This document shows positions 21,321-59,303 of a stretch of DNA of 64,000 nt, piece after piece. The stretch is taken from positions 74,627 to 138,626 of the forward strand of contig CAXYDO010000001.1 in assembly GCA_964276015.1 (NCBI GenBank). Reading direction: 5' to 3'. Below the pieces are notes generated by a model. That model saw nothing but the letters and a program-made list of their open reading frames with translations. It was not told the DNA's origin and ran no database searches. Made by a program: the position numbers and the translations under genes. How positions within the stretch are numbered: position 1 is the first letter of the stretch; each line of letters opens with the position of its first letter. This DNA is from an uncultured Alphaproteobacteria bacterium (GTDB taxonomy: Bacteria > Pseudomonadota > Alphaproteobacteria > UBA6615).

Positions 21321-21327
21321 AGAATTT

Positions 21328-21401
21328 GGAGCGGGAAACGAGATTCGAACTCGCGACCCTCACGTTGGCAACGTGATGCTCTACCACTGAGCTATTCCCG
21401 C
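21328..21401 (-). tRNA. tRNA-Gly (anticodon GCC)
   Basis: The reverse complement GCGGGAATAGCTCAGTGGTAGAGCATCACGTTGCCAACGTGAGGGTCGCGAGTTCGAATCTCGTTTCCCGCTCCA folds as a canonical cloverleaf with a GCC anticodon and an encoded CCA. Confidence 0.9.
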
Positions 21402-53618: not shown

Positions 53619-54866
53619 ATGTCTAACCCCGCCACACAAACCACAGAGACCAACTGGACCGGCGTGTCCTACGGGATCGTCCTTGGTTTCGTCGCCGCCT
53701 ATTTCCAGTTCAAGGTGCCCCCGGTTCTGCCGGTGCTGATCGATCTCTACGGCTACGAAAAAATCGTCGCCGGCAGCATGATGTCGATCTTTGCCGCAGC
53801 CGGGATGCTGGCCAGCGTCCGGATCGGACGCGGCATCAGGCGCGAAGGGGCGATCCGCTACCTGGTGGGCGCCTTCGCGCTAATGCTGATCGGCACCACG
53901 CTCGGCCTGCTCGAACCCGAGAACGTCACAATAATGCTGATCTCGCGGGCGATCGAAGGGCTCGGTGCCGCTGTTCTGGCTGTTTGTATGCCGGCCTTTG
54001 CCAATATGAGCGCCGGCCCGCGCCACCTGCCGGTTGTCATCGCCGCCCAGGCCACATGGATCCCGATCGGGCAACTCGTCGCAAACCTGGTCGCCCAGCC
54101 CGCCGTCGCCCAGTCCCTATGGCAGCCTGTCTGGTGGTTTGGTGCCGCAGCCACTGTGGTGATTGCCCTGTGGACCTGGCACATCCTGGCCCGTGGCAAG
54201 GTTTCAGGAATGGCGTACCGATCGGCGGCAACCCAGGCGGAAAACGCTGTCGCCGCCAGCGAGCCTCTGACAAAGCCGGAAACCCAGGCACTCTGGCTTG
54301 CGGCGAGTCTATTTTTCCTGTGGCAGGCCCAATTCATGGGCTACTTCACCTGGTTCAACGTCTATCTAGTTGATGTTTTCACCGTTCCGGCCGATGACGC
54401 GGTCGCGATCAATCAGATTCCAGTGGTGGTGTTGCTTATTTTCGCGCTGATCGGCGGGTTTCTTTTGAAAACCGGCCTTGGCGTGATCCGCCTGTTGACC
54501 CTCGCTTTAGCTTTGCAAACCCTGGGATGGTTGATGATCCCGTTTGCCGGCAATCTCTGGATCGGCCTTGGCAGCCTCGTCATCTGGGGTGTTGCCGGCG
54601 GGCTTACCCCCACATCCCTGTGGGCGCTGCCCTCGACCTTATTGGGGGGTCATCGCGCAGGAACCGAAGCATTTGCCGTGGTTTTGACCGGGCGCTACCT
54701 GGGCATCCTCGCCGGACCGCTGATTGCATCAGGGGTCTTCCTGCTGACCGGGTCCTGGAGCACCGCGCCGCTTGTGTTTGCAGCCATGGCGGTGACCACG
54801 ATCATCGGGACACTGATACTGGGAGTGCAAATGCGAAAATTGCACGCCGCGCGGCCGGCCGATTAA
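53619..54866 (+). CDS. MFS transporter
   Basis: 415 aa and 12 predicted TM helices, with an MFS-like motif A in loop 2-3 (GRGIRREG-like positive cluster). Confidence 0.75.
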   Translation: MSNPATQTTETNWTGVSYGIVLGFVAAYFQFKVPPVLPVLIDLYGYEKIVAGSMMSIFAAAGMLASVRIGRGIRREGAIRYLVGAFALMLIGTTLGLLEPENVTIMLISRAIEGLGAAVLAVCMPAFANMSAGPRHLPVVIAAQATWIPIGQLVANLVAQPAVAQSLWQPVWWFGAAATVVIALWTWHILARGKVSGMAYRSAATQAENAVAASEPLTKPETQALWLAASLFFLWQAQFMGYFTWFNVYLVDVFTVPADDAVAINQIPVVVLLIFALIGGFLLKTGLGVIRLLTLALALQTLGWLMIPFAGNLWIGLGSLVIWGVAGGLTPTSLWALPSTLLGGHRAGTEAFAVVLTGRYLGILAGPLIASGVFLLTGSWSTAPLVFAAMAVTTIIGTLILGVQMRKLHAARPAD

Positions 54867-55570
54867 GGAACGAGTTTGTAGCCGCCCGGCTCGGTCACCA
54901 GAATACGCGCATTAGAGGGGTCCGCCTCGATCTTTTGCCGCAAGCGGTAGACATGGGTTTCCAGGGTGTGGGTCGTGACCCCGACGTTGTACCCCCAGAC
55001 TTCCCCGAGCAGCGTATCGCGACTGACCACTTTATCGCCGGCGCGATACAGGTATTTCAGGATTGCGGTTTCTTTCTCGGTGAGGCGCACCTTGCGTTCG
55101 TCGGCGTCGAGCAGCATTTTCTGCGCCGGCTGGAACGTATAGGGCCCGATCGTGAACACAGCATCTTCGCTTTGCTCGTGCTGACGCAACTGGGCCCGCA
55201 GCCGGGCCAGCAAGACGTTCAGCCGAAACGGCTTGGCGATATAGTCGTTGGCGCCCGCATCCAGACCGAGAATCTGATCTGCATCGGTGTCGTGGCCGGT
55301 CAGCATGATGATCGGCGACTTGACCCCGTTGCGGCGCATCCGGCGACACACCTCGCGCCCGTCCATATCCGGCAGACCCACATCGAGCAGGATCGCGTCG
55401 AAATACTCGGTTTTGATAATTTCCAGGGCGTCTGACGCACTGGCCAATTCCGTGGTCACGAATTCCTCGTGCAGCCGGAGTTGCTCCGACAATGAATCGC
55501 GCAGGGCGTCATTATCATCGATCAGCAAGACCTTCTTTCCCTTTGCTACCTTGGTTTCCGCCACATTCAT
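54863..55570 (-). CDS. OmpR/PhoB-family response regulator (orphan; no adjacent histidine kinase)
   Basis: Receiver domain (KVLLIDDNDALRDSL...DAILLDVGLPDMDG...) and a winged-helix output (TEKETAILKYL...VYRLRQKI). ATG at 55570 with AGGA ten nt upstream. The track start at 55687 adds 39 residues that overlap nothing recognisable. Confidence 0.7.
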   Translation of the reverse strand: MNVAETKVAKGKKVLLIDDNDALRDSLSEQLRLHEEFVTTELASASDALEIIKTEYFDAILLDVGLPDMDGREVCRRMRRNGVKSPIIMLTGHDTDADQILGLDAGANDYIAKPFRLNVLLARLRAQLRQHEQSEDAVFTIGPYTFQPAQKMLLDADERKVRLTEKETAILKYLYRAGDKVVSRDTLLGEVWGYNVGVTTHTLETHVYRLRQKIEADPSNARILVTEPGGYKLVP

Positions 55571-55602
55571 AGCCAATTGTCCTATCGCCATGCCAGCCAT
55601 AT

Positions 55603-55887
55603 CTATGCGCTCACTTCGATGCCGCGCCAGAACGCCACGTGGTCGCAAATATTGTCCGCCGCCGGCTTCGGGTAAGAATAATACCATGCGGCATCGGGGT
55701 TTTCCTTACCGTTTACCTGCACCGTGAAATAATTCGACGTACCCTTCCAGTAACAGCCCGTCGTGGTGGCGCTTTCGGTGAAATACTCACGGTTGAGCAA
55801 GCTTAGGGGAAAATAGATATTTCCCTCGACGGTCTCGAAGCTCTAGCTTTCGGCGAGAACGACGTCGTTCCAGATTGCCTTGGCCAT
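55603..55887 (-). pseudogene. DUF427 domain protein interrupted by an in-frame amber codon at codon 15
   Basis: Reverse-strand reading from the ATG at 55887 gives MAKAIWNDVVLAES*SFETVEGNIYFPLSLLNREYFTES...CYWKG...AAWYY...HVAFWRGIEV. This is a full DUF427 signature with a TAG (plus-strand CTA at 55843-55845) where Asp/Glu is normally found. Confidence 0.65.
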
Positions 55888-55947
55888 GGATATGCCCTCC
55901 TGTTCGCTAAACACGTGGCGATGACGGACGTCAAAACAAGGGGCAGA

Positions 55948-55956
55948 GGGGGGGGG
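55948..55956 (+). repeat. Poly-G tract (G9) in the intergenic region about 125 bp upstream of ribA
   Basis: CAGAGGGGGGGGGTGAC, read directly. Confidence 0.9.
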
Positions 55957-56083
55957 TGACGCGACCTCACATTCGATCACACACAAGCGAGCACAACGCC
56001 AACCCAACGGCGATGACAGCGGTTGCCGCCCCGAACTCCATAGCGCATATTAAGTTTTCTTACGCCCTGTCCGTCCGGTGACC

Positions 56084-57214
56084 ATGAGCCAGCTTCCCAA
56101 TACCCTACAACCCGTCGAACGGGCTATCAGCGATCTCCGCCGCGGTGCCACCATCGTTCTGATGGGCGACAACCACGCCCTTCTGGTGCAGGCCGCCGAA
56201 GGCACAACCACATCGGGCCTGGCGCGGATCTCCGGGCTTTCGAAATCCACGACCGCATTGCTGGTGACCGCCCGCCGGGCGGCAATCCTGGGGCTGGGTG
56301 AAAAATCTGAGGGCGCTGTGCGCTTGTCCCTGTCAGGCGGTGTAACTGCAGATACTGTGCGCATGATGGCCGACCCGGCGGTCCCCCGTTCGGATACGGA
56401 AACCCTGCCGCAACCGATCTCGATATCCCATATCGACCCTGATACGGTACCCGGTGCAGCCGAAATTGGCGCCATTGAGTTGCTCAAGCTGGCCAGCCTG
56501 CTACCCGCCGCGGTGGTGGCAACGATCCCTGTCGAACGCCTCCCGTATTTGTCGTCCTGGGCAGAGAACGAAGCCCTGCTAACGGTCGAGGTTGACCATG
56601 TCCGCAATTATCAGGAAATTGAATCCCGCACCCTGAACCGGGTCGGCGCGGCTCGGGTGCCTCTGGACGTCAGTGACGATGTCGAAATCATCGCGTTCCG
56701 ACCGAGCGACGGTGGGCGAGACCATCTCGCTTTGCTCATCGGCAGCCCCGACATCGACAAACCCGTTCTGGTTAGACTGCACTCCGAGTGTTTCACCGGG
56801 GATTTGCTCGGTAGCTTGCGATGCGATTGCGGCGATCAGCTGCGCGGTGCGATCACCGAGATCGGCACCCAAGGCGGCGGCCTGGTGCTTTATCTAGCTC
56901 AGGAAGGCCGTGGCATTGGCCTGGTCAATAAGCTGCGGGCCTACACCCTTCAAGACAAAGGCTTCGACACGATCGATGCCAATCAGCAACTGGGTTTCGA
57001 CGCCGATGAGCGGCTGTACCGCCCGGCCGCTGAAATTCTCCGCCAGCTCGGGATCGGCAATGTAAGGCTGATGACCAACAATCCGGACAAAGTGGCCGCT
57101 CTGGAGGAATGGGACATCACCGTCAGCGAACGGGTGCCGCACAGTTTCCCCCCCAATGCGCACAATGAATTCTACCTGGCCACAAAGAAAGCCCGTGCGG
57201 GTCATTTGTACTAA
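56084..57214 (+). CDS. ribA: GTP cyclohydrolase II (RibA) with a degenerate DHBP-synthase-like N-terminal domain
   Basis: The C-terminal half has the zinc-binding motif RLHSECFTGDLLGSLRCDCG and the GTP cyclohydrolase II motifs QEGRGIGL...MTNNPDK. The N-terminal ~170 aa lacks the RibB acidic catalytic motif. ATG at 56084; the track GTG is at 56078. Confidence 0.8.
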   Translation: MSQLPNTLQPVERAISDLRRGATIVLMGDNHALLVQAAEGTTTSGLARISGLSKSTTALLVTARRAAILGLGEKSEGAVRLSLSGGVTADTVRMMADPAVPRSDTETLPQPISISHIDPDTVPGAAEIGAIELLKLASLLPAAVVATIPVERLPYLSSWAENEALLTVEVDHVRNYQEIESRTLNRVGAARVPLDVSDDVEIIAFRPSDGGRDHLALLIGSPDIDKPVLVRLHSECFTGDLLGSLRCDCGDQLRGAITEIGTQGGGLVLYLAQEGRGIGLVNKLRAYTLQDKGFDTIDANQQLGFDADERLYRPAAEILRQLGIGNVRLMTNNPDKVAALEEWDITVSERVPHSFPPNAHNEFYLATKKARAGHLY

Positions 57215-57318
57215 GCACCCGGCAGGATTTACCGGATATATTGCTGTCCAGTACAAGTAGTGTTTTGGATCATGCCTGTAAGTCTTTGTTATTTTATCTA
57301 AATATAGATCGGCCGGCG

Positions 57319-57986
57319 ATGCTCACTCAATCGCTGACGGATCCGTTCCATCCCTATCCGGATTCTGCCGATAACACGGCCCCTGGGGCAATAGCAGATG
57401 CAGGCGAGTTCTTTTCCACCCTGCTCGACATCATCAATCCCCTGCAACACATCCCGCTTGTGTCCAAAATTTACCGGGAATGGACCGGAGAAGAGATAAA
57501 CTCAACGGCCCGCATGGTCGGGGGGGGGGGGCGGCGGTTTTTGGTGGCCCTATCGGGTTCGCGGCCGCGACAGCCAATGTCCTACTGGAACAGGCGTCCG
57601 GGGATAACCTTTTGGGCCACGCCGTGACGCTCTTGTCGGATGACGCCAAACCTTCCGGAACGGACCTGGCTGATCCAAATCTCTTCGCTGCGCGGCCCCC
57701 GGAAAAAGTGGCCATACCAGCTGCCGCTGCTGATGCAGATACGACGACTACACTACTCCCGGAAGCCGCTACCGCTGTCTCTCAACCCAAATCTCTCGAA
57801 TGGCTGCCCGACGCATTGAGTCTGGCCCAACAAAACGCAACTGCCCGGGCCGCCGGCAGTCCGATACCGCCGGCAACAGCCCAGCCATGGGTCGCCAAAG
57901 CCATGTTTGATGCTCTCGACAAATACGAAGCACTGGCTCGTGCTCGGAACCTCGCCGATAGCCAAACGCCTGACGACAGGTCGTAG
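57319..57986 (+). pseudogene. Hypothetical Ala/Pro-rich protein whose ORF is split by a G12 homopolymer (candidate phase-variable gene or homopolymer sequencing error)
   Basis: Frame A (ATG 57319 ...STARMVGGGG) and frame C (GGGAAVFGGPIGFAAATANVLL... to the stop at 57986) join into a single 222-aa ORF if the G tract at 57520-57531 is G13 or G10 instead of G12. Confidence 0.5.
57520..57531 (+). repeat. Poly-G tract (G12) inside a coding region
   Basis: GCATGGTC-GGGGGGGGGGGG-CGGCGG, read directly. Confidence 0.95.
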
Positions 57987-58033
57987 CGCGCGTTCTGACC
58001 TGCGCGCCAGCGCATTCGTTTATAGTGCAGACC

Positions 58034-58546
58034 ATGATTATTACTGTGACAGCTCAAAATGGCGGCCCAGTCACCCTCAACGCCAATGACGGGGAATTCC
58101 CCGCGGCGATCGGGCCAGCCGGGATCACAAAGGATAAATACGAGGGCGACGGGGCCACACCGGCAGGCCGGTTTCCGTTTCGGGCCGTCTATTTTCGACC
58201 GGACCGCCTGGCTTCACCGGTTACAGCTCTGCCGGTGTATGCGATTCAGACCAATGACGGCTGGTGCGACGCTCCCGAGGACCCCCTCTACAACCGGGCG
58301 GTCAAGCTGCCCTACCCAAGCTCAGCAGAGGCATTTTGGCGCGATGACGGGGTTTACGACCTGCTTGTGGTTCTGGGACACAATGATAGACCCGTGGTTC
58401 CCGGCGCCGGCAGTGCTATTTTCCTGCATATCGCACGTGCAGATTTCGCGCCTACCCAAGGATGTGTGGCTGTAACGCGGGAGGTCTTGCTTGGTCTGAT
58501 CGAATGCCTGGATGACGAAAGCGTTATCGAGATCAACGCCACCTAG
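58034..58546 (+). CDS. L,D-transpeptidase catalytic-domain family protein (YkuD-like)
   Basis: ...SAIFLHIARADFAPTQGCVAVTREVLLGLIE contains the conserved His and Cys of the YkuD fold. ATG at 58034; the track GTG is at 58025. Confidence 0.6.
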   Translation: MIITVTAQNGGPVTLNANDGEFPAAIGPAGITKDKYEGDGATPAGRFPFRAVYFRPDRLASPVTALPVYAIQTNDGWCDAPEDPLYNRAVKLPYPSSAEAFWRDDGVYDLLVVLGHNDRPVVPGAGSAIFLHIARADFAPTQGCVAVTREVLLGLIECLDDESVIEINAT

Positions 58547-59217
58547 GGCGTGACGGCCCGCGCCCCGAATATTCCGCGCCCGACCCGCACATGGGTCGCG
58601 CCCAATTCGGCGGCCACGTCGTAATCAGCCGACATCCCCATGCTCAGACCCGACAACCCGTTGCGTACGGCAATTTTTCGCAGCAGGGCGAAATGCGGGG
58701 CGACGGGAACATCAACTGGCGGAATGCACATCAGACCCTCAATGGGCAATTCCAGCGCACGACATGTTTGGATAAATTCATCCGCATCACCAGGCAGCAC
58801 ACCGGCCTTCTGGGGCTCTTCGCCCGTGTTGAGCTGGATGAAACAACGCCGGACCAACCCGGCCGCCGCAAAGGCCCGCGCCAGATGCTCCGCCAGTTTG
58901 GGTCGATCGACGGTCTGAATCACATCAAACAACGCCACCGCATCCTTAACTTTGTTGGTCTGCAACGGCCCGACCAGGTGCAATTCCAGCGTGTCGGTGC
59001 TTGCGCGTCGATCAGCCCAATGGTCTTGGGCTTCCTGGACTCGGTTCTCGCCAAATACGCGCTGTCCCGCGGTCAGTGCGGCTGCGATGCGTTCATCGGA
59101 TTGCGTTTTGCTAATCGCGACCAAGGTCACATCATCGGCCTGACGCGCCGCGCGCGCCGCGGCGGCGGTTAAACGATCCTGCACATTGCGAAGGTTCTCC
59201 GCGATTTCCTGTCCCAC
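58543..59217 (-). CDS. yggS: YggS family pyridoxal-phosphate homeostasis protein
   Basis: IAENLRNVQDRLTAAAARA...VTLVAISKT (PLP-binding Lys) ...LHLVGPLQTNKVK. GTG at 59217 with GGAAAG nine nt upstream. Confidence 0.8.
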   Translation of the reverse strand: MGQEIAENLRNVQDRLTAAAARAARQADDVTLVAISKTQSDERIAAALTAGQRVFGENRVQEAQDHWADRRASTDTLELHLVGPLQTNKVKDAVALFDVIQTVDRPKLAEHLARAFAAAGLVRRCFIQLNTGEEPQKAGVLPGDADEFIQTCRALELPIEGLMCIPPVDVPVAPHFALLRKIAVRNGLSGLSMGMSADYDVAAELGATHVRVGRGIFGARAVTP

Positions 59218-59303
59218 ACACACAGCTTTCCACCTGCCAGAGCTTGACGTTGTACTGCTTCATCGCAATGTTCGACGCATCGCAAACATACTATAAACGG
59301 ACC

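What the first reader, a model, noticed from the sequence alone, without database searches (positions are those of the whole stretch)
57319..57986. G12 homopolymer inside a hypothetical ORF: a candidate slipped-strand phase-variation switch
A 12-G run is very rare even at 62% GC. It lies exactly at the junction of two ORF fragments that fuse into one 222-aa Ala/Pro-rich protein when the tract is G13 or G10. G12 or G11 gives the OFF state. This is the classic architecture of a contingency locus, and the gene is preceded by an AT-rich promoter-like leader at 57230-57318. The alternative reading is a homopolymer sequencing error.
Basis: partly seen in the sequence, partly recalled or inferred. 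Interest (0 to 1): 0.6.

Follow-up and report, generated by a model that had tools for sequence, protein, structure and literature searches.

The report
Slippery poly-G tract in a decaying gene
The 12-G run is real and truly hypervariable in wild marine relatives, flipping a conserved gene of unknown function in and out of frame, but this particular copy has also lost its promoter and start codon, so it is most likely a dead gene and not a poised on/off switch.

Summary
G12 lies at 57520-57531 and is the only homopolymer longer than 9 in 64 kb. G10 or G13 fuses the two ORFs into a 221/222-aa protein that has more than 500 full-length homologues. In 66 Rhodospirillales species the site encodes an invariant Gly-Gly with G-runs of only 2-6. 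Only the window's tight marine clade has a long tract. Across 28 DNA-verified sequences its length is 7, 8, 9, 10, 12, 13 or 16, and it is often the only difference between otherwise identical contigs of 1-2.4 kb. A C7 control run never varies.

The "classic contingency locus" reading is only partly supported. The family carries a conserved sigma54-type -24/-12 promoter just upstream of its ATG. The window has deleted 49 nt that contain this promoter and the native start codon. It also shares a 144-nt in-frame deletion of a conserved motif. Other clade alleles carry a nonsense codon, a frameshifting deletion or promoter-core mutations.

Best reading: a hypermutable tract in a gene being lost from this clade, with the window copy a pseudogene. 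A working phase switch remains a credible minority reading. Sequencing error alone is unlikely.

The parts
57520..57531 (+). G12 homopolymer, the slippage-prone tract. It occupies the codons for the family-invariant Gly-Gly. It is out of frame here and needs +1 or -2 to restore the ORF.
   Evidence: Length at the homologous site in 28 clade sequences: 7, 8, 9, 10, 12, 13, 16.
57532..57537 (+). CGG-CGG. This is an in-frame duplication of the CGG that follows the tract and adds one Ala. It is shared only with the window-type alleles L090 and L091.
57319..57627 (+). Upstream ORF fragment. Residues 1-71 are the conserved N-terminal domain (LDIINPLQHIP...ARMVGGGG). After the tract comes a 31-aa out-of-frame tail. 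ATG 57319 is not the ancestral start; the 49-nt deletion brought it into frame.
57532..57986 (+). Downstream part of the same gene in the other frame (AAVFGGPIGFAAATAN ... QPWVAKAMFDALDKYEALARAR, stop at 57984-57986). The ORF listed as 57480-57986 begins at a spurious out-of-frame ATG.
   Evidence: P0002 is exactly this fragment.
57323..57324 (+). Junction of a 49-nt deletion relative to all other clade alleles. The missing sequence is CAACGTGGCATCAGGCTCGCAATTTACTTGCTGCCATGGCCACGATACC, which holds the sigma54-type -24/-12 element and the native ATG (MATIPTQ...).
   Evidence: Also present in L003.
57709..57710 (+). Junction of a 144-nt in-frame deletion between GGCCAYACC direct repeats. It removes the IVWxGPR motif conserved in distant orthologues. 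Shared with L001, L090 and L091.
57230..57318 (+). AT-rich (39% GC) intergenic leader, conserved within the clade. It has no sigma70-like + strand promoter and no significant RNA structure or terminator.
56078..57214 (+). Upstream neighbour, a GTP cyclohydrolase II (ribA-like) gene. It is intact and its C7 run (57148) is invariant in all 22 related contigs. It is a possible source of read-through transcription.
58025..58546 (+). Downstream neighbour, a YkuD-type L,D-transpeptidase gene. It is intact and adjacent to the focal gene in about 47 of 60 genomes.

Best explanation
The G12 run is a genuine slipped-strand mutational hotspot inside a conserved Rhodospirillales gene of unknown function. 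Outside this clade the gene is driven by a sigma54-type promoter placed 14-15 nt before its ATG. In the window's marine clade, an ancestral GTC-GGG-GGG-GCG (G7, encoding the invariant Gly-Gly) expanded. The tract now changes length far faster than any other site, producing in-frame (G7/10/13/16) and out-of-frame (G8/9/12) alleles in natural populations.

The window's copy is out of frame at G12. It has also lost 49 nt that carry the promoter and native start codon, and it carries a 144-nt in-frame deletion of a conserved motif. It is therefore most likely a pseudogene. The gene is being lost from this clade, with the tract as the main but not the only route of inactivation. It is probably not a poised, adaptively maintained ON/OFF switch.

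Shown: the tract, the frame logic, the length polymorphism on identical backgrounds, the extra lesions, and the conserved -24/-12 motif and its deletion. Inferred: that the motif is a functional sigma54 promoter, that the length changes arise in vivo by replication slippage, and that the window copy is not expressed.
For: Tract and frame.

Real gene: more than 500 homologues and a full-length alignment, and conserved synteny in about 45 of 60 genomes.

The tract is clade-specific: 66 of 69 species have the NPLQH-to-FGGP spacing at exactly 90 nt in frame, with G-runs of 2-6.

Hypervariability: 28 DNA-verified sequences give G7x1, G8x1, G9x2, G10x12, G12x5, G13x6 and G16x1, while the C7 control equals 7 in all 22 contigs. 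Contigs from different samples show 0 mismatches over 1.1-2.4 kb yet carry G10, G12 or G13. JGI and Logan assemblies each yielded G10, G12 and G13 contigs. GGG is only 20-25% of Gly codons, so an all-GGG run is not codon choice.

Decay: the 49-nt deletion; a sigma54-type motif in 40 of 76 loci (strict; shuffles 0.26%) and 60 of 75 (relaxed; shuffles 1.3%); the promoter core mutated differently in every clade sublineage and deleted in the window; consensus per PMC2831329; CAA to TAG in the L004 group, a roughly 136-nt out-of-frame deletion in L005, and the 144-nt in-frame deletion. The neighbouring DUF427 gene is also a pseudogene in this strain. On the window branch there are about 12 nonsynonymous and 8 synonymous changes (dN/dS about 0.5), against 0.17-0.24 for the other clade pairs.
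Against: dN/dS within the clade is well below 1. Neutrality is rejected at P = 4e-5 for L002-L004 and P = 0.008 for L001-window. The gene was therefore functional through most of the clade's history and any decay is recent. The window-branch excess of nonsynonymous changes is not significant (Fisher P = 0.086).

In-frame lengths predominate (20 of 28 sequences, or 6 of 11 allele types against 1/3 expected, P = 0.12). This sample is biased and non-independent.

L002 has no coding lesion other than G9. A near-identical in-frame sibling of the window allele exists, L090/L091 with G10+CGGCGG.

The 49-nt deletion happens to leave an in-frame ATG, and no terminator separates the ORF from the upstream ribA-like gene. 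Read-through expression after a +1 slip cannot be excluded.

The sigma54 assignment rests on motif conservation only.
Confidence: 0.55

Rival explanations
1. This is a working contingency locus. The poly-G tract is maintained by selection as a reversible ON/OFF switch for this protein, which may be envelope-associated, in a free-living marine alphaproteobacterium. The window simply shows the OFF phase, and a +1 slip (G13) would restore expression from read-through or an unrecognised promoter.
For: Seven tract lengths occur, with both ON and OFF alleles on identical backgrounds. The tract has stayed uninterrupted in all sublineages despite dS of about 0.05-0.1. The coding sequence is under purifying selection. 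In-frame lengths are over-represented. The tract lies at about 30% of the ORF, so a frameshift is inactivating. An ON sibling of the window allele exists. No terminator lies upstream.
Against: In the window the conserved -24/-12 promoter and native ATG are deleted. Second irreversible lesions occur in several alleles, including in-frame ones: TAG in at least 17 contigs, and the L005 deletion. The promoter core is mutated in every sublineage. The tract is absent from 66 other species that keep the gene. The gene class is not typical of contingency genes, and there are no hits in PADLOC, PHROGs or Pfam. Reversibility and within-clone heterogeneity are untested.
Confidence: 0.25
2. Sequencing or assembly artefact. 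The true tract is in frame (for example G13) and G12 is a homopolymer under-call. The OFF alleles in relatives (G9, G12) would likewise be -1 errors of G10 and G13.
For: Apart from one G8, the OFF lengths are ON minus one (G9, G12); G11 and G14 are not seen. Illumina can create spurious indels in homopolymers (PMC8808543). Many related contigs are short and probably of low coverage.
Against: Two assemblies give the same G12. Other runs (C7, G7) are identical across contigs, and the only indels against L001 in 5.5 kb are the two long G-runs and the 49-nt deletion. Twelve contigs agree on G10, so under-calling at G10 is rare, yet the L002-type sublineage is G9 in all three samples. G10 and G13 differ by 3 nt on identical backgrounds and recur in many samples and in both pipelines, which cannot be stutter. 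The cited paper places the main Illumina problem above 14 bp. Even if the tract were G13, the promoter/start deletion remains.
Confidence: 0.1
3. Recoding. G12 is fixed, and the frame is restored in a fraction of transcripts or translations by RNA-polymerase slippage or ribosomal frameshifting on the G-run, so the gene is still expressed at a low level.
For: All OFF alleles except G8 need the same +1 correction. Homopolymer runs of 9 or more can cause transcriptional slippage (own knowledge: Thermus dnaX, Shigella mxiE, endosymbiont poly-A tracts).
Against: Known cases use A/T runs, and G/C runs slip poorly in RNA polymerase (own knowledge). The out-of-frame state is not conserved, since relatives carry in-frame DNA alleles. 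The promoter and start are deleted in the window.
Confidence: 0.04

Closest known systems
Poly-G/C contingency loci of Campylobacter jejuni, Neisseria and Haemophilus (SSR-mediated phase variation)
   Same: An intragenic mononucleotide G-run of 8-13 in the first third of an ORF. Changes of +/-1 toggle the frame. Tract length differs between otherwise identical genomes.
   Different: The host is an uncultivated free-living marine alphaproteobacterium of about 60% GC. The gene is a conserved core gene of unknown function, not a surface or restriction-modification gene. Many alleles carry additional irreversible lesions. Reversibility and phenotype are untested.
Homopolymeric-tract phase variants in Mycobacterium tuberculosis (for example glpK and ESX-1-associated genes; abstracts of 10.1101/2022.06.10.495637 and PMC11898584)
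   Same: A high-GC genome, G/C homopolymer frameshifts in ordinary chromosomal genes, and recurrent emergence across a phylogeny inferred from comparative sequence data.
   Different: Tracts there are shorter (about 7-9), and reversion and selection have been demonstrated. Here the tract is longer (up to 16) and the evidence is from metagenome assemblies only.
Homopolymer-driven pseudogenisation, where long SSRs act as indel hotspots that are generally selected against (Lin and Kussell, PMC3315296)
   Same: A long monomeric SSR of about 10 bp or more in a coding region acts as the dominant indel hotspot, and frameshifted alleles accumulate alongside other disabling mutations.
   Different: The flanking coding sequence still shows purifying selection, and in-frame lengths dominate, so loss is recent or incomplete.
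Sigma54 (RpoN)-dependent -24/-12 promoters (consensus TGGca-N4-5-ttGCaa; PMC2831329)
   Same: The family's upstream motif TGGCAY-N5-TTGCW has the correct GG...GC spacing and sits at a fixed short distance from the ATG.
   Different: No transcription start site, rpoN gene or enhancer-binding protein has been demonstrated. In the tract-bearing clade the core is mutated, and in the window it is deleted.

Membership tests
SSR-mediated phase-variable (contingency) locus | A simple-sequence repeat long enough to be hypermutable, located in an ORF or promoter | tested here: met
   G12 within the ORF. Monomeric SSRs of about 10 bp or more are regarded as highly mutable (PMC3315296).
SSR-mediated phase-variable (contingency) locus | Repeat-number changes switch the reading frame between ON and OFF | tested here: met
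   G10 and G13 give the full ORF, while G11 and G12 truncate it. Relatives with G7/10/13/16 are in frame and those with G8/9/12 are out of frame.
SSR-mediated phase-variable (contingency) locus | Tract length is polymorphic among closely related strains and changes faster than point substitutions | tested here: met
   Seven lengths in 28 sequences. There are 0 mismatches over 1.1-2.4 kb between G10, G12 and G13 contigs. The C7 control is invariant.
SSR-mediated phase-variable (contingency) locus | OFF alleles are otherwise intact, so the switch is reversible and maintained by selection | tested here: not met
   The window has the 49-nt promoter/start deletion. The L004 group has a TAG codon. 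L005 has an out-of-frame deletion. The promoter core is mutated in all sublineages. Only L002 is otherwise intact in its coding sequence.
SSR-mediated phase-variable (contingency) locus | Within-clone heterogeneity and demonstrated reversion | not testable with these tools
   No reads or cultures were available.
SSR-mediated phase-variable (contingency) locus | ON/OFF changes an expressed phenotype | not testable with these tools
   Function is unknown. There are no hits in Pfam, NCBIfam, PDB, PADLOC or PHROGs, and the AlphaFold2 model is poor (pLDDT 61).
Pseudogene (decaying copy of a conserved gene) | ORF disrupted relative to intact orthologues | tested here: met
   Frameshift at the tract compared with the intact P0001 and P0122 and more than 60 species.
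Pseudogene (decaying copy of a conserved gene) | More than one independent disabling lesion, including loss of expression signals | tested here: met
   The frameshift, the 49-nt deletion of the conserved -24/-12 motif and native ATG, and the 144-nt deletion of a conserved motif.
Pseudogene (decaying copy of a conserved gene) | Relaxed selection (dN/dS approaching 1) | tested here: inconclusive
   Pairs with the window give 0.36-0.44, and the window branch about 0.5, against 0.17-0.24 elsewhere and 0.07-0.37 for neighbouring genes. Fisher P = 0.086.
Sigma54-dependent gene (applies to the protein family as a whole) | -24 GG / -12 GC element with canonical spacing upstream of the gene | tested here: met
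   40 of 76 loci (strict) and 60 of 75 (relaxed), against 0.26% and 1.3% in shuffles. Absent from the window because it is deleted.
Sigma54-dependent gene (applies to the protein family as a whole) | rpoN and a cognate enhancer-binding protein are present, and the transcription start site is mapped | not testable with these tools
   No GAFTGA or RpoN-box signature occurs in the 64-kb window, and the whole genome was not available.
Programmed transcriptional slippage or frameshift recoding site | The out-of-frame arrangement is conserved among relatives | tested here: not met
   Relatives carry in-frame DNA alleles, and distant orthologues have no run.

The most novel reading that the evidence does not exclude
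A genuine contingency locus in a free-living, uncultivated marine alphaproteobacterium. On this reading a recently evolved poly-G tract stochastically switches a conserved, sigma54-linked protein of unknown function that sits next to an L,D-transpeptidase gene, and ON/OFF alleles coexist in ocean populations. That would extend SSR phase variation beyond host-associated pathogens and make it visible directly in metagenomes.
Probability: 0.22. Interest if true: 0.6.

Novelty: new member of a known kind. Interest (0 to 1): 0.4.

Why it matters
Homopolymer slippage is a textbook mechanism, so the kind is known. The useful results are three. First, a suspected assembly error turns out to be a real tract that varies at the population level (G7 to G16 on identical backgrounds) in ocean metagenomes. 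Second, the window's copy should be annotated as a pseudogene with several lesions, not as two hypothetical ORFs or a poised switch. Third, as a by-product, this work defines an uncharacterised, widely conserved Rhodospirillales protein family with a conserved sigma54-type, nearly leaderless promoter and fixed synteny beside an L,D-transpeptidase gene, which is a concrete target for functional study. If the minority reading is right, it would be an unusual documented case of SSR phase variation in a free-living marine alphaproteobacterium.

Tried and rejected
Function searches found nothing. Pfam, NCBIfam, PADLOC, PHROGs and a PDB profile search all gave no hit. AlphaFold2 on a 44-sequence alignment gave mean pLDDT 61 and pTM 0.28, which is too poor for a fold search, so none was run.

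The sigma70 promoter scan of the AT-rich leader gave no + strand site. An RNA fold of the leader was not significant (z = -1.17). Rfam found only one tRNA in the window.

The genome-contig scan did not contain the window's own species; the best match was 52% identity. The organism is therefore known only as an uncultivated marine alphaproteobacterium, from the source names. The metagenome DNA-pattern scan returned four loci, two of which (L086, L089) were chance matches with G4 in unrelated sequence. DNA for the third G9 allele (P0133) could not be fetched, so that allele is inferred from the protein only.

General assembly error-proneness was considered and rejected. Shorter runs are invariant, and the neighbouring broken gene (DUF427) is broken by a substitution, not an indel. 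I also considered that the 57480 ATG marks a real internal start and rejected it: gene callers use the same out-of-frame ATG in other frameshifted relatives (P0003, P0026, P0127), and it encodes the out-of-frame peptide MDRRRDKLNGPHGR.

Full report
**1. The observation**

The sequence at 57511-57540 reads CCGCATGGTC-G12-CGGCGGTTTT, and the run occupies 57520-57531. It is the only homopolymer longer than 9 in the window. The next longest is a G9 at 55948, and no other run exceeds 8. The i.i.d. expectation for a G-run of 12 or more is 0.013. Starting from ATG 57319, the reading frame reaches a stop at 57627 with G12 (102 aa) and after 95 aa with G11. With G10 or G13 it runs through to 57986, giving 221 or 222 aa. 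Window GC is 59.5%.

**2. It is one real gene**

The repaired protein has more than 500 homologues. P0001 is 92% identical over 99% of its length, and P0002 is exactly the 168-aa downstream fragment from the same organism. The alignment shows a strongly conserved N-terminal core (LDIINPLQHIP...Y-R-E-x-T-G-D ... GG-x-x-FGGP-x-G), a variable Ala/Pro-rich linker and a conserved C-terminal helix pair.

The family has no match in Pfam, NCBIfam, PDB, PADLOC or PHROGs. An AlphaFold2 model is of low confidence (pLDDT 61), so function is unknown.

The gene sits in a conserved neighbourhood: response regulator (-), ribA-like, this gene, YkuD L,D-transpeptidase, YggS (-). This order holds in about 45 of 60 Rhodospirillales-type genomes. 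It is therefore a core gene and not an accessory surface gene.

**3. The tract is recent and clade-specific**

In 69 species-level orthologues the site encodes Gly-Gly with G-runs of 2-6. In 66 of them the distance from the NPLQH codons to the FGGP codons is exactly 90 nt and in frame. Only the window's own clade (more than 90% amino-acid identity, all from marine metagenomes including a Tara Oceans sample) has a long run. GGG is only 20-25% of Gly codons in this genome, so three or four consecutive GGG codons are not codon choice (P about 0.016 and 0.004). The run most likely grew by slippage from a G7 ancestor (GTC GGG GGG GCG), a state still present in L103.

**4. The tract is hypervariable in nature**

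The DNA of 28 clade sequences, taken from the window, ENA, JGI and Logan assemblies of many samples, gives G7x1, G8x1, G9x2, G10x12, G12x5, G13x6 and G16x1. Lengths 7, 10, 13 and 16 are in frame; 8, 9 and 12 are not. Protein-level evidence adds further G9 and G12 alleles.

A C7 run in the adjacent ribA-like gene is 7 in all 22 contigs that cover it. The only other long run, the intergenic G9 at 55948, is 7, 8 or 9.

Within one sublineage, contigs from different samples have 0 mismatches over 1.1-2.4 kb and differ only in the tract. Examples are L101 G12 against L097 G10, L101 G12 against L109 G13, and L092 G10 against L106 G13. JGI and Logan assemblies each yielded G10, G12 and G13 contigs. 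The window's own allele type also exists in frame: L090 (Tara) and L091 have G10+CGGCGG and encode the 224-aa P0122.

The window's G12 is reproduced by a second assembly that differs at 1 of 5695 bases. Twelve contigs agree on G10. Differences of 3 nt between G10 and G13 cannot be stutter. Illumina homopolymer indels are said to be mainly a problem above 14 bp (PMC8808543).

One caveat remains. Apart from one G8, the OFF lengths are ON minus one (G9, G12), and G11 and G14 are never seen. This fits a deletion bias in vivo, but it would also fit under-calling.

**5. The window copy is more than frameshifted**

Against L001, the 5.5 kb around the gene contains only three indels: the two long G-runs and a 49-nt deletion at 57323/57324. 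All other clade alleles retain those 49 nt, which contain their annotated start (ATG GCC ACG ATA..., MATIPTQ).

Comparing start regions across the family revealed a conserved motif, TGGCAY-N5-TTGCW, upstream of the gene. The strict form occurs in 40 of 76 loci (shuffle rate 0.26% per region) and the relaxed form TGG-N8-YTGCW in 60 of 75 (shuffle rate 1.3%). It matches the sigma54 -24/-12 consensus TGGca-N4-5-ttGCaa with its conserved GG and GC (PMC2831329). In the nearest tract-less relatives it lies 14-15 nt before the ATG, with no Shine-Dalgarno sequence, which implies a nearly leaderless transcript (inference).

The window's deletion removes this whole element and the ATG. ATG 57319 is a fortuitous in-frame replacement with no ribosome-binding site.

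**6. Decay across the clade**

Every clade allele examined is altered at a core promoter position, differently in each sublineage:
- L001 has TCGCA.
- L002 has TTACA (GC to AC).
- The L004/L092-L105/L103 group has TAGCAT (GG to AG).
- L087 has CAGCAT.
- L090 and L091 have TTGTA (GC to GT).

The coding lesions are as follows:
- A CAA to TAG nonsense codon occurs in at least 17 contigs of one sublineage, whatever their tract length.
- L005 has a roughly 136-nt out-of-frame deletion between TGCCCG repeats.
- The window type and L001 share a 144-nt in-frame deletion between GGCCAYACC repeats, which removes the conserved IVWxGPR motif.
- The L002 type has an Arg to Pro change in the conserved C-terminal helix.

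The neighbouring DUF427 gene is also dead in the window strain, with GAG to TAG at 55843-55845 plus four amino-acid changes.

**7. Counter-evidence**

Nei-Gojobori dN/dS for the focal gene is 0.17-0.24 for pairs without the window, against 0.07-0.37 for the neighbouring genes, and neutrality is rejected (P = 4e-5 to 3e-3). Pairs with the window give 0.36-0.44, and the window branch has about 12 nonsynonymous to 8 synonymous changes (dN/dS about 0.5). That excess over the neighbours is not significant (P = 0.086).

The gene was therefore constrained for most of the clade's history while already carrying a long tract. In-frame lengths predominate (20 of 28 sequences; 6 of 11 allele types, P = 0.12). 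L002 has no coding lesion other than G9. No terminator separates the ORF from the ribA-like gene. A functioning switch in some lineages cannot be excluded.

**8. Verdict**

The tract is a genuine slipped-strand hotspot, and the ON/OFF frame polymorphism in natural populations is real. For the window itself, the combination of frameshift, promoter/start deletion and motif deletion makes a pseudogene the best reading (0.55). An adaptively maintained contingency locus is a credible minority reading (0.25). Artefact (0.10) and recoding (0.04) are unlikely.

Mechanistically it works like the poly-G contingency loci of Campylobacter and Neisseria and the homopolymer phase variants of M. tuberculosis. 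It fails the membership criterion that OFF alleles be otherwise intact. Reversibility and phenotype could not be tested. Read-level tract-length counts in the source sample, the status of rpoN in the genome, and transcript evidence would settle the question.

Noticed in passing
Family-wide. Loci L006-L085, about 15-40 nt upstream of each orthologue's ATG. In the window the site is deleted at 57323/57324.: A conserved sigma54-type -24/-12 motif (TGGCAY-N5-TTGCW) precedes this uncharacterised gene family in 60 of 75 diverse Rhodospirillales genomes. In the closest tract-less relatives it lies 14-15 nt before the ATG with no Shine-Dalgarno sequence, which suggests a nearly leaderless sigma54 transcript.
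   Followed up: partly
window 55603-55887 (- strand): The DUF427 gene is a pseudogene in this strain. It has an in-frame GAG to TAG at 55843-55845 plus four amino-acid changes relative to the intact 94-aa copy in L001. The same TAG is present in the Logan contig L003.
   Followed up: yes
window 55948-55956: A second long homopolymer, G9 (C9 on the - strand), lies about 60 nt upstream of the DUF427 start, in the divergent intergenic region facing the ribA-like gene. It is also length-polymorphic in relatives: G7 in L001, G8 in L092, G9 in L093, L096 and L105. The two runs of 9 or more in the window lie within 1.6 kb of each other, and both vary.
   Followed up: partly
window 54863-59223 and loci L006-L085: The gene order response regulator (-) / ribA-like GTP cyclohydrolase II / hypothetical gene / YkuD L,D-transpeptidase / YggS (-) is conserved in about 45 of 60 genomes across Magnetospirillum, Kiloniella, Sneathiella, Pelagibius and others. 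The hypothetical family has no Pfam, NCBIfam or PDB match.
   Followed up: partly
window 57709/57710; L002 461-590 region: A 144-nt in-frame deletion between 9-nt direct repeats (GGCCAYACC) removes the IVWxGPR motif that is conserved in distant orthologues. It is shared by the window type (window, L003, L090, L091) and L001, but not by L002, L004 or L103.
   Followed up: yes
L088 3979-4015 (MEHZ011356747.1): The longest allele is G16. It appears to have formed when a C to G substitution merged G13 with the following CGG. It is still in frame (five Gly, then V-F-G-G). It lies at the very end of its contig, so assembly may break at the tract.
   Followed up: no
Clade loci: Apart from a single G8, the out-of-frame tract lengths are in-frame lengths minus one (G9, G12). 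G11 and G14 were not seen in 28 sequences. This could reflect a deletion bias of slippage, short-lived OFF variants, or systematic under-calling. It remains unexplained.
   Followed up: partly
window 21327-21401 (- strand): tRNA-Gly(GCC) is the only RNA gene that Rfam and ARAGORN detect in the 64-kb window.
   Followed up: no
window 55690: This is the single difference (G in the window, A in L003) between the window and the independently assembled Logan contig from run ERR12117715 over 5695 bases.
   Followed up: no
window 25782 and 40735: T8 and A8 are the longest A/T homopolymers in the window. I did not examine their context or variability.
   Followed up: no
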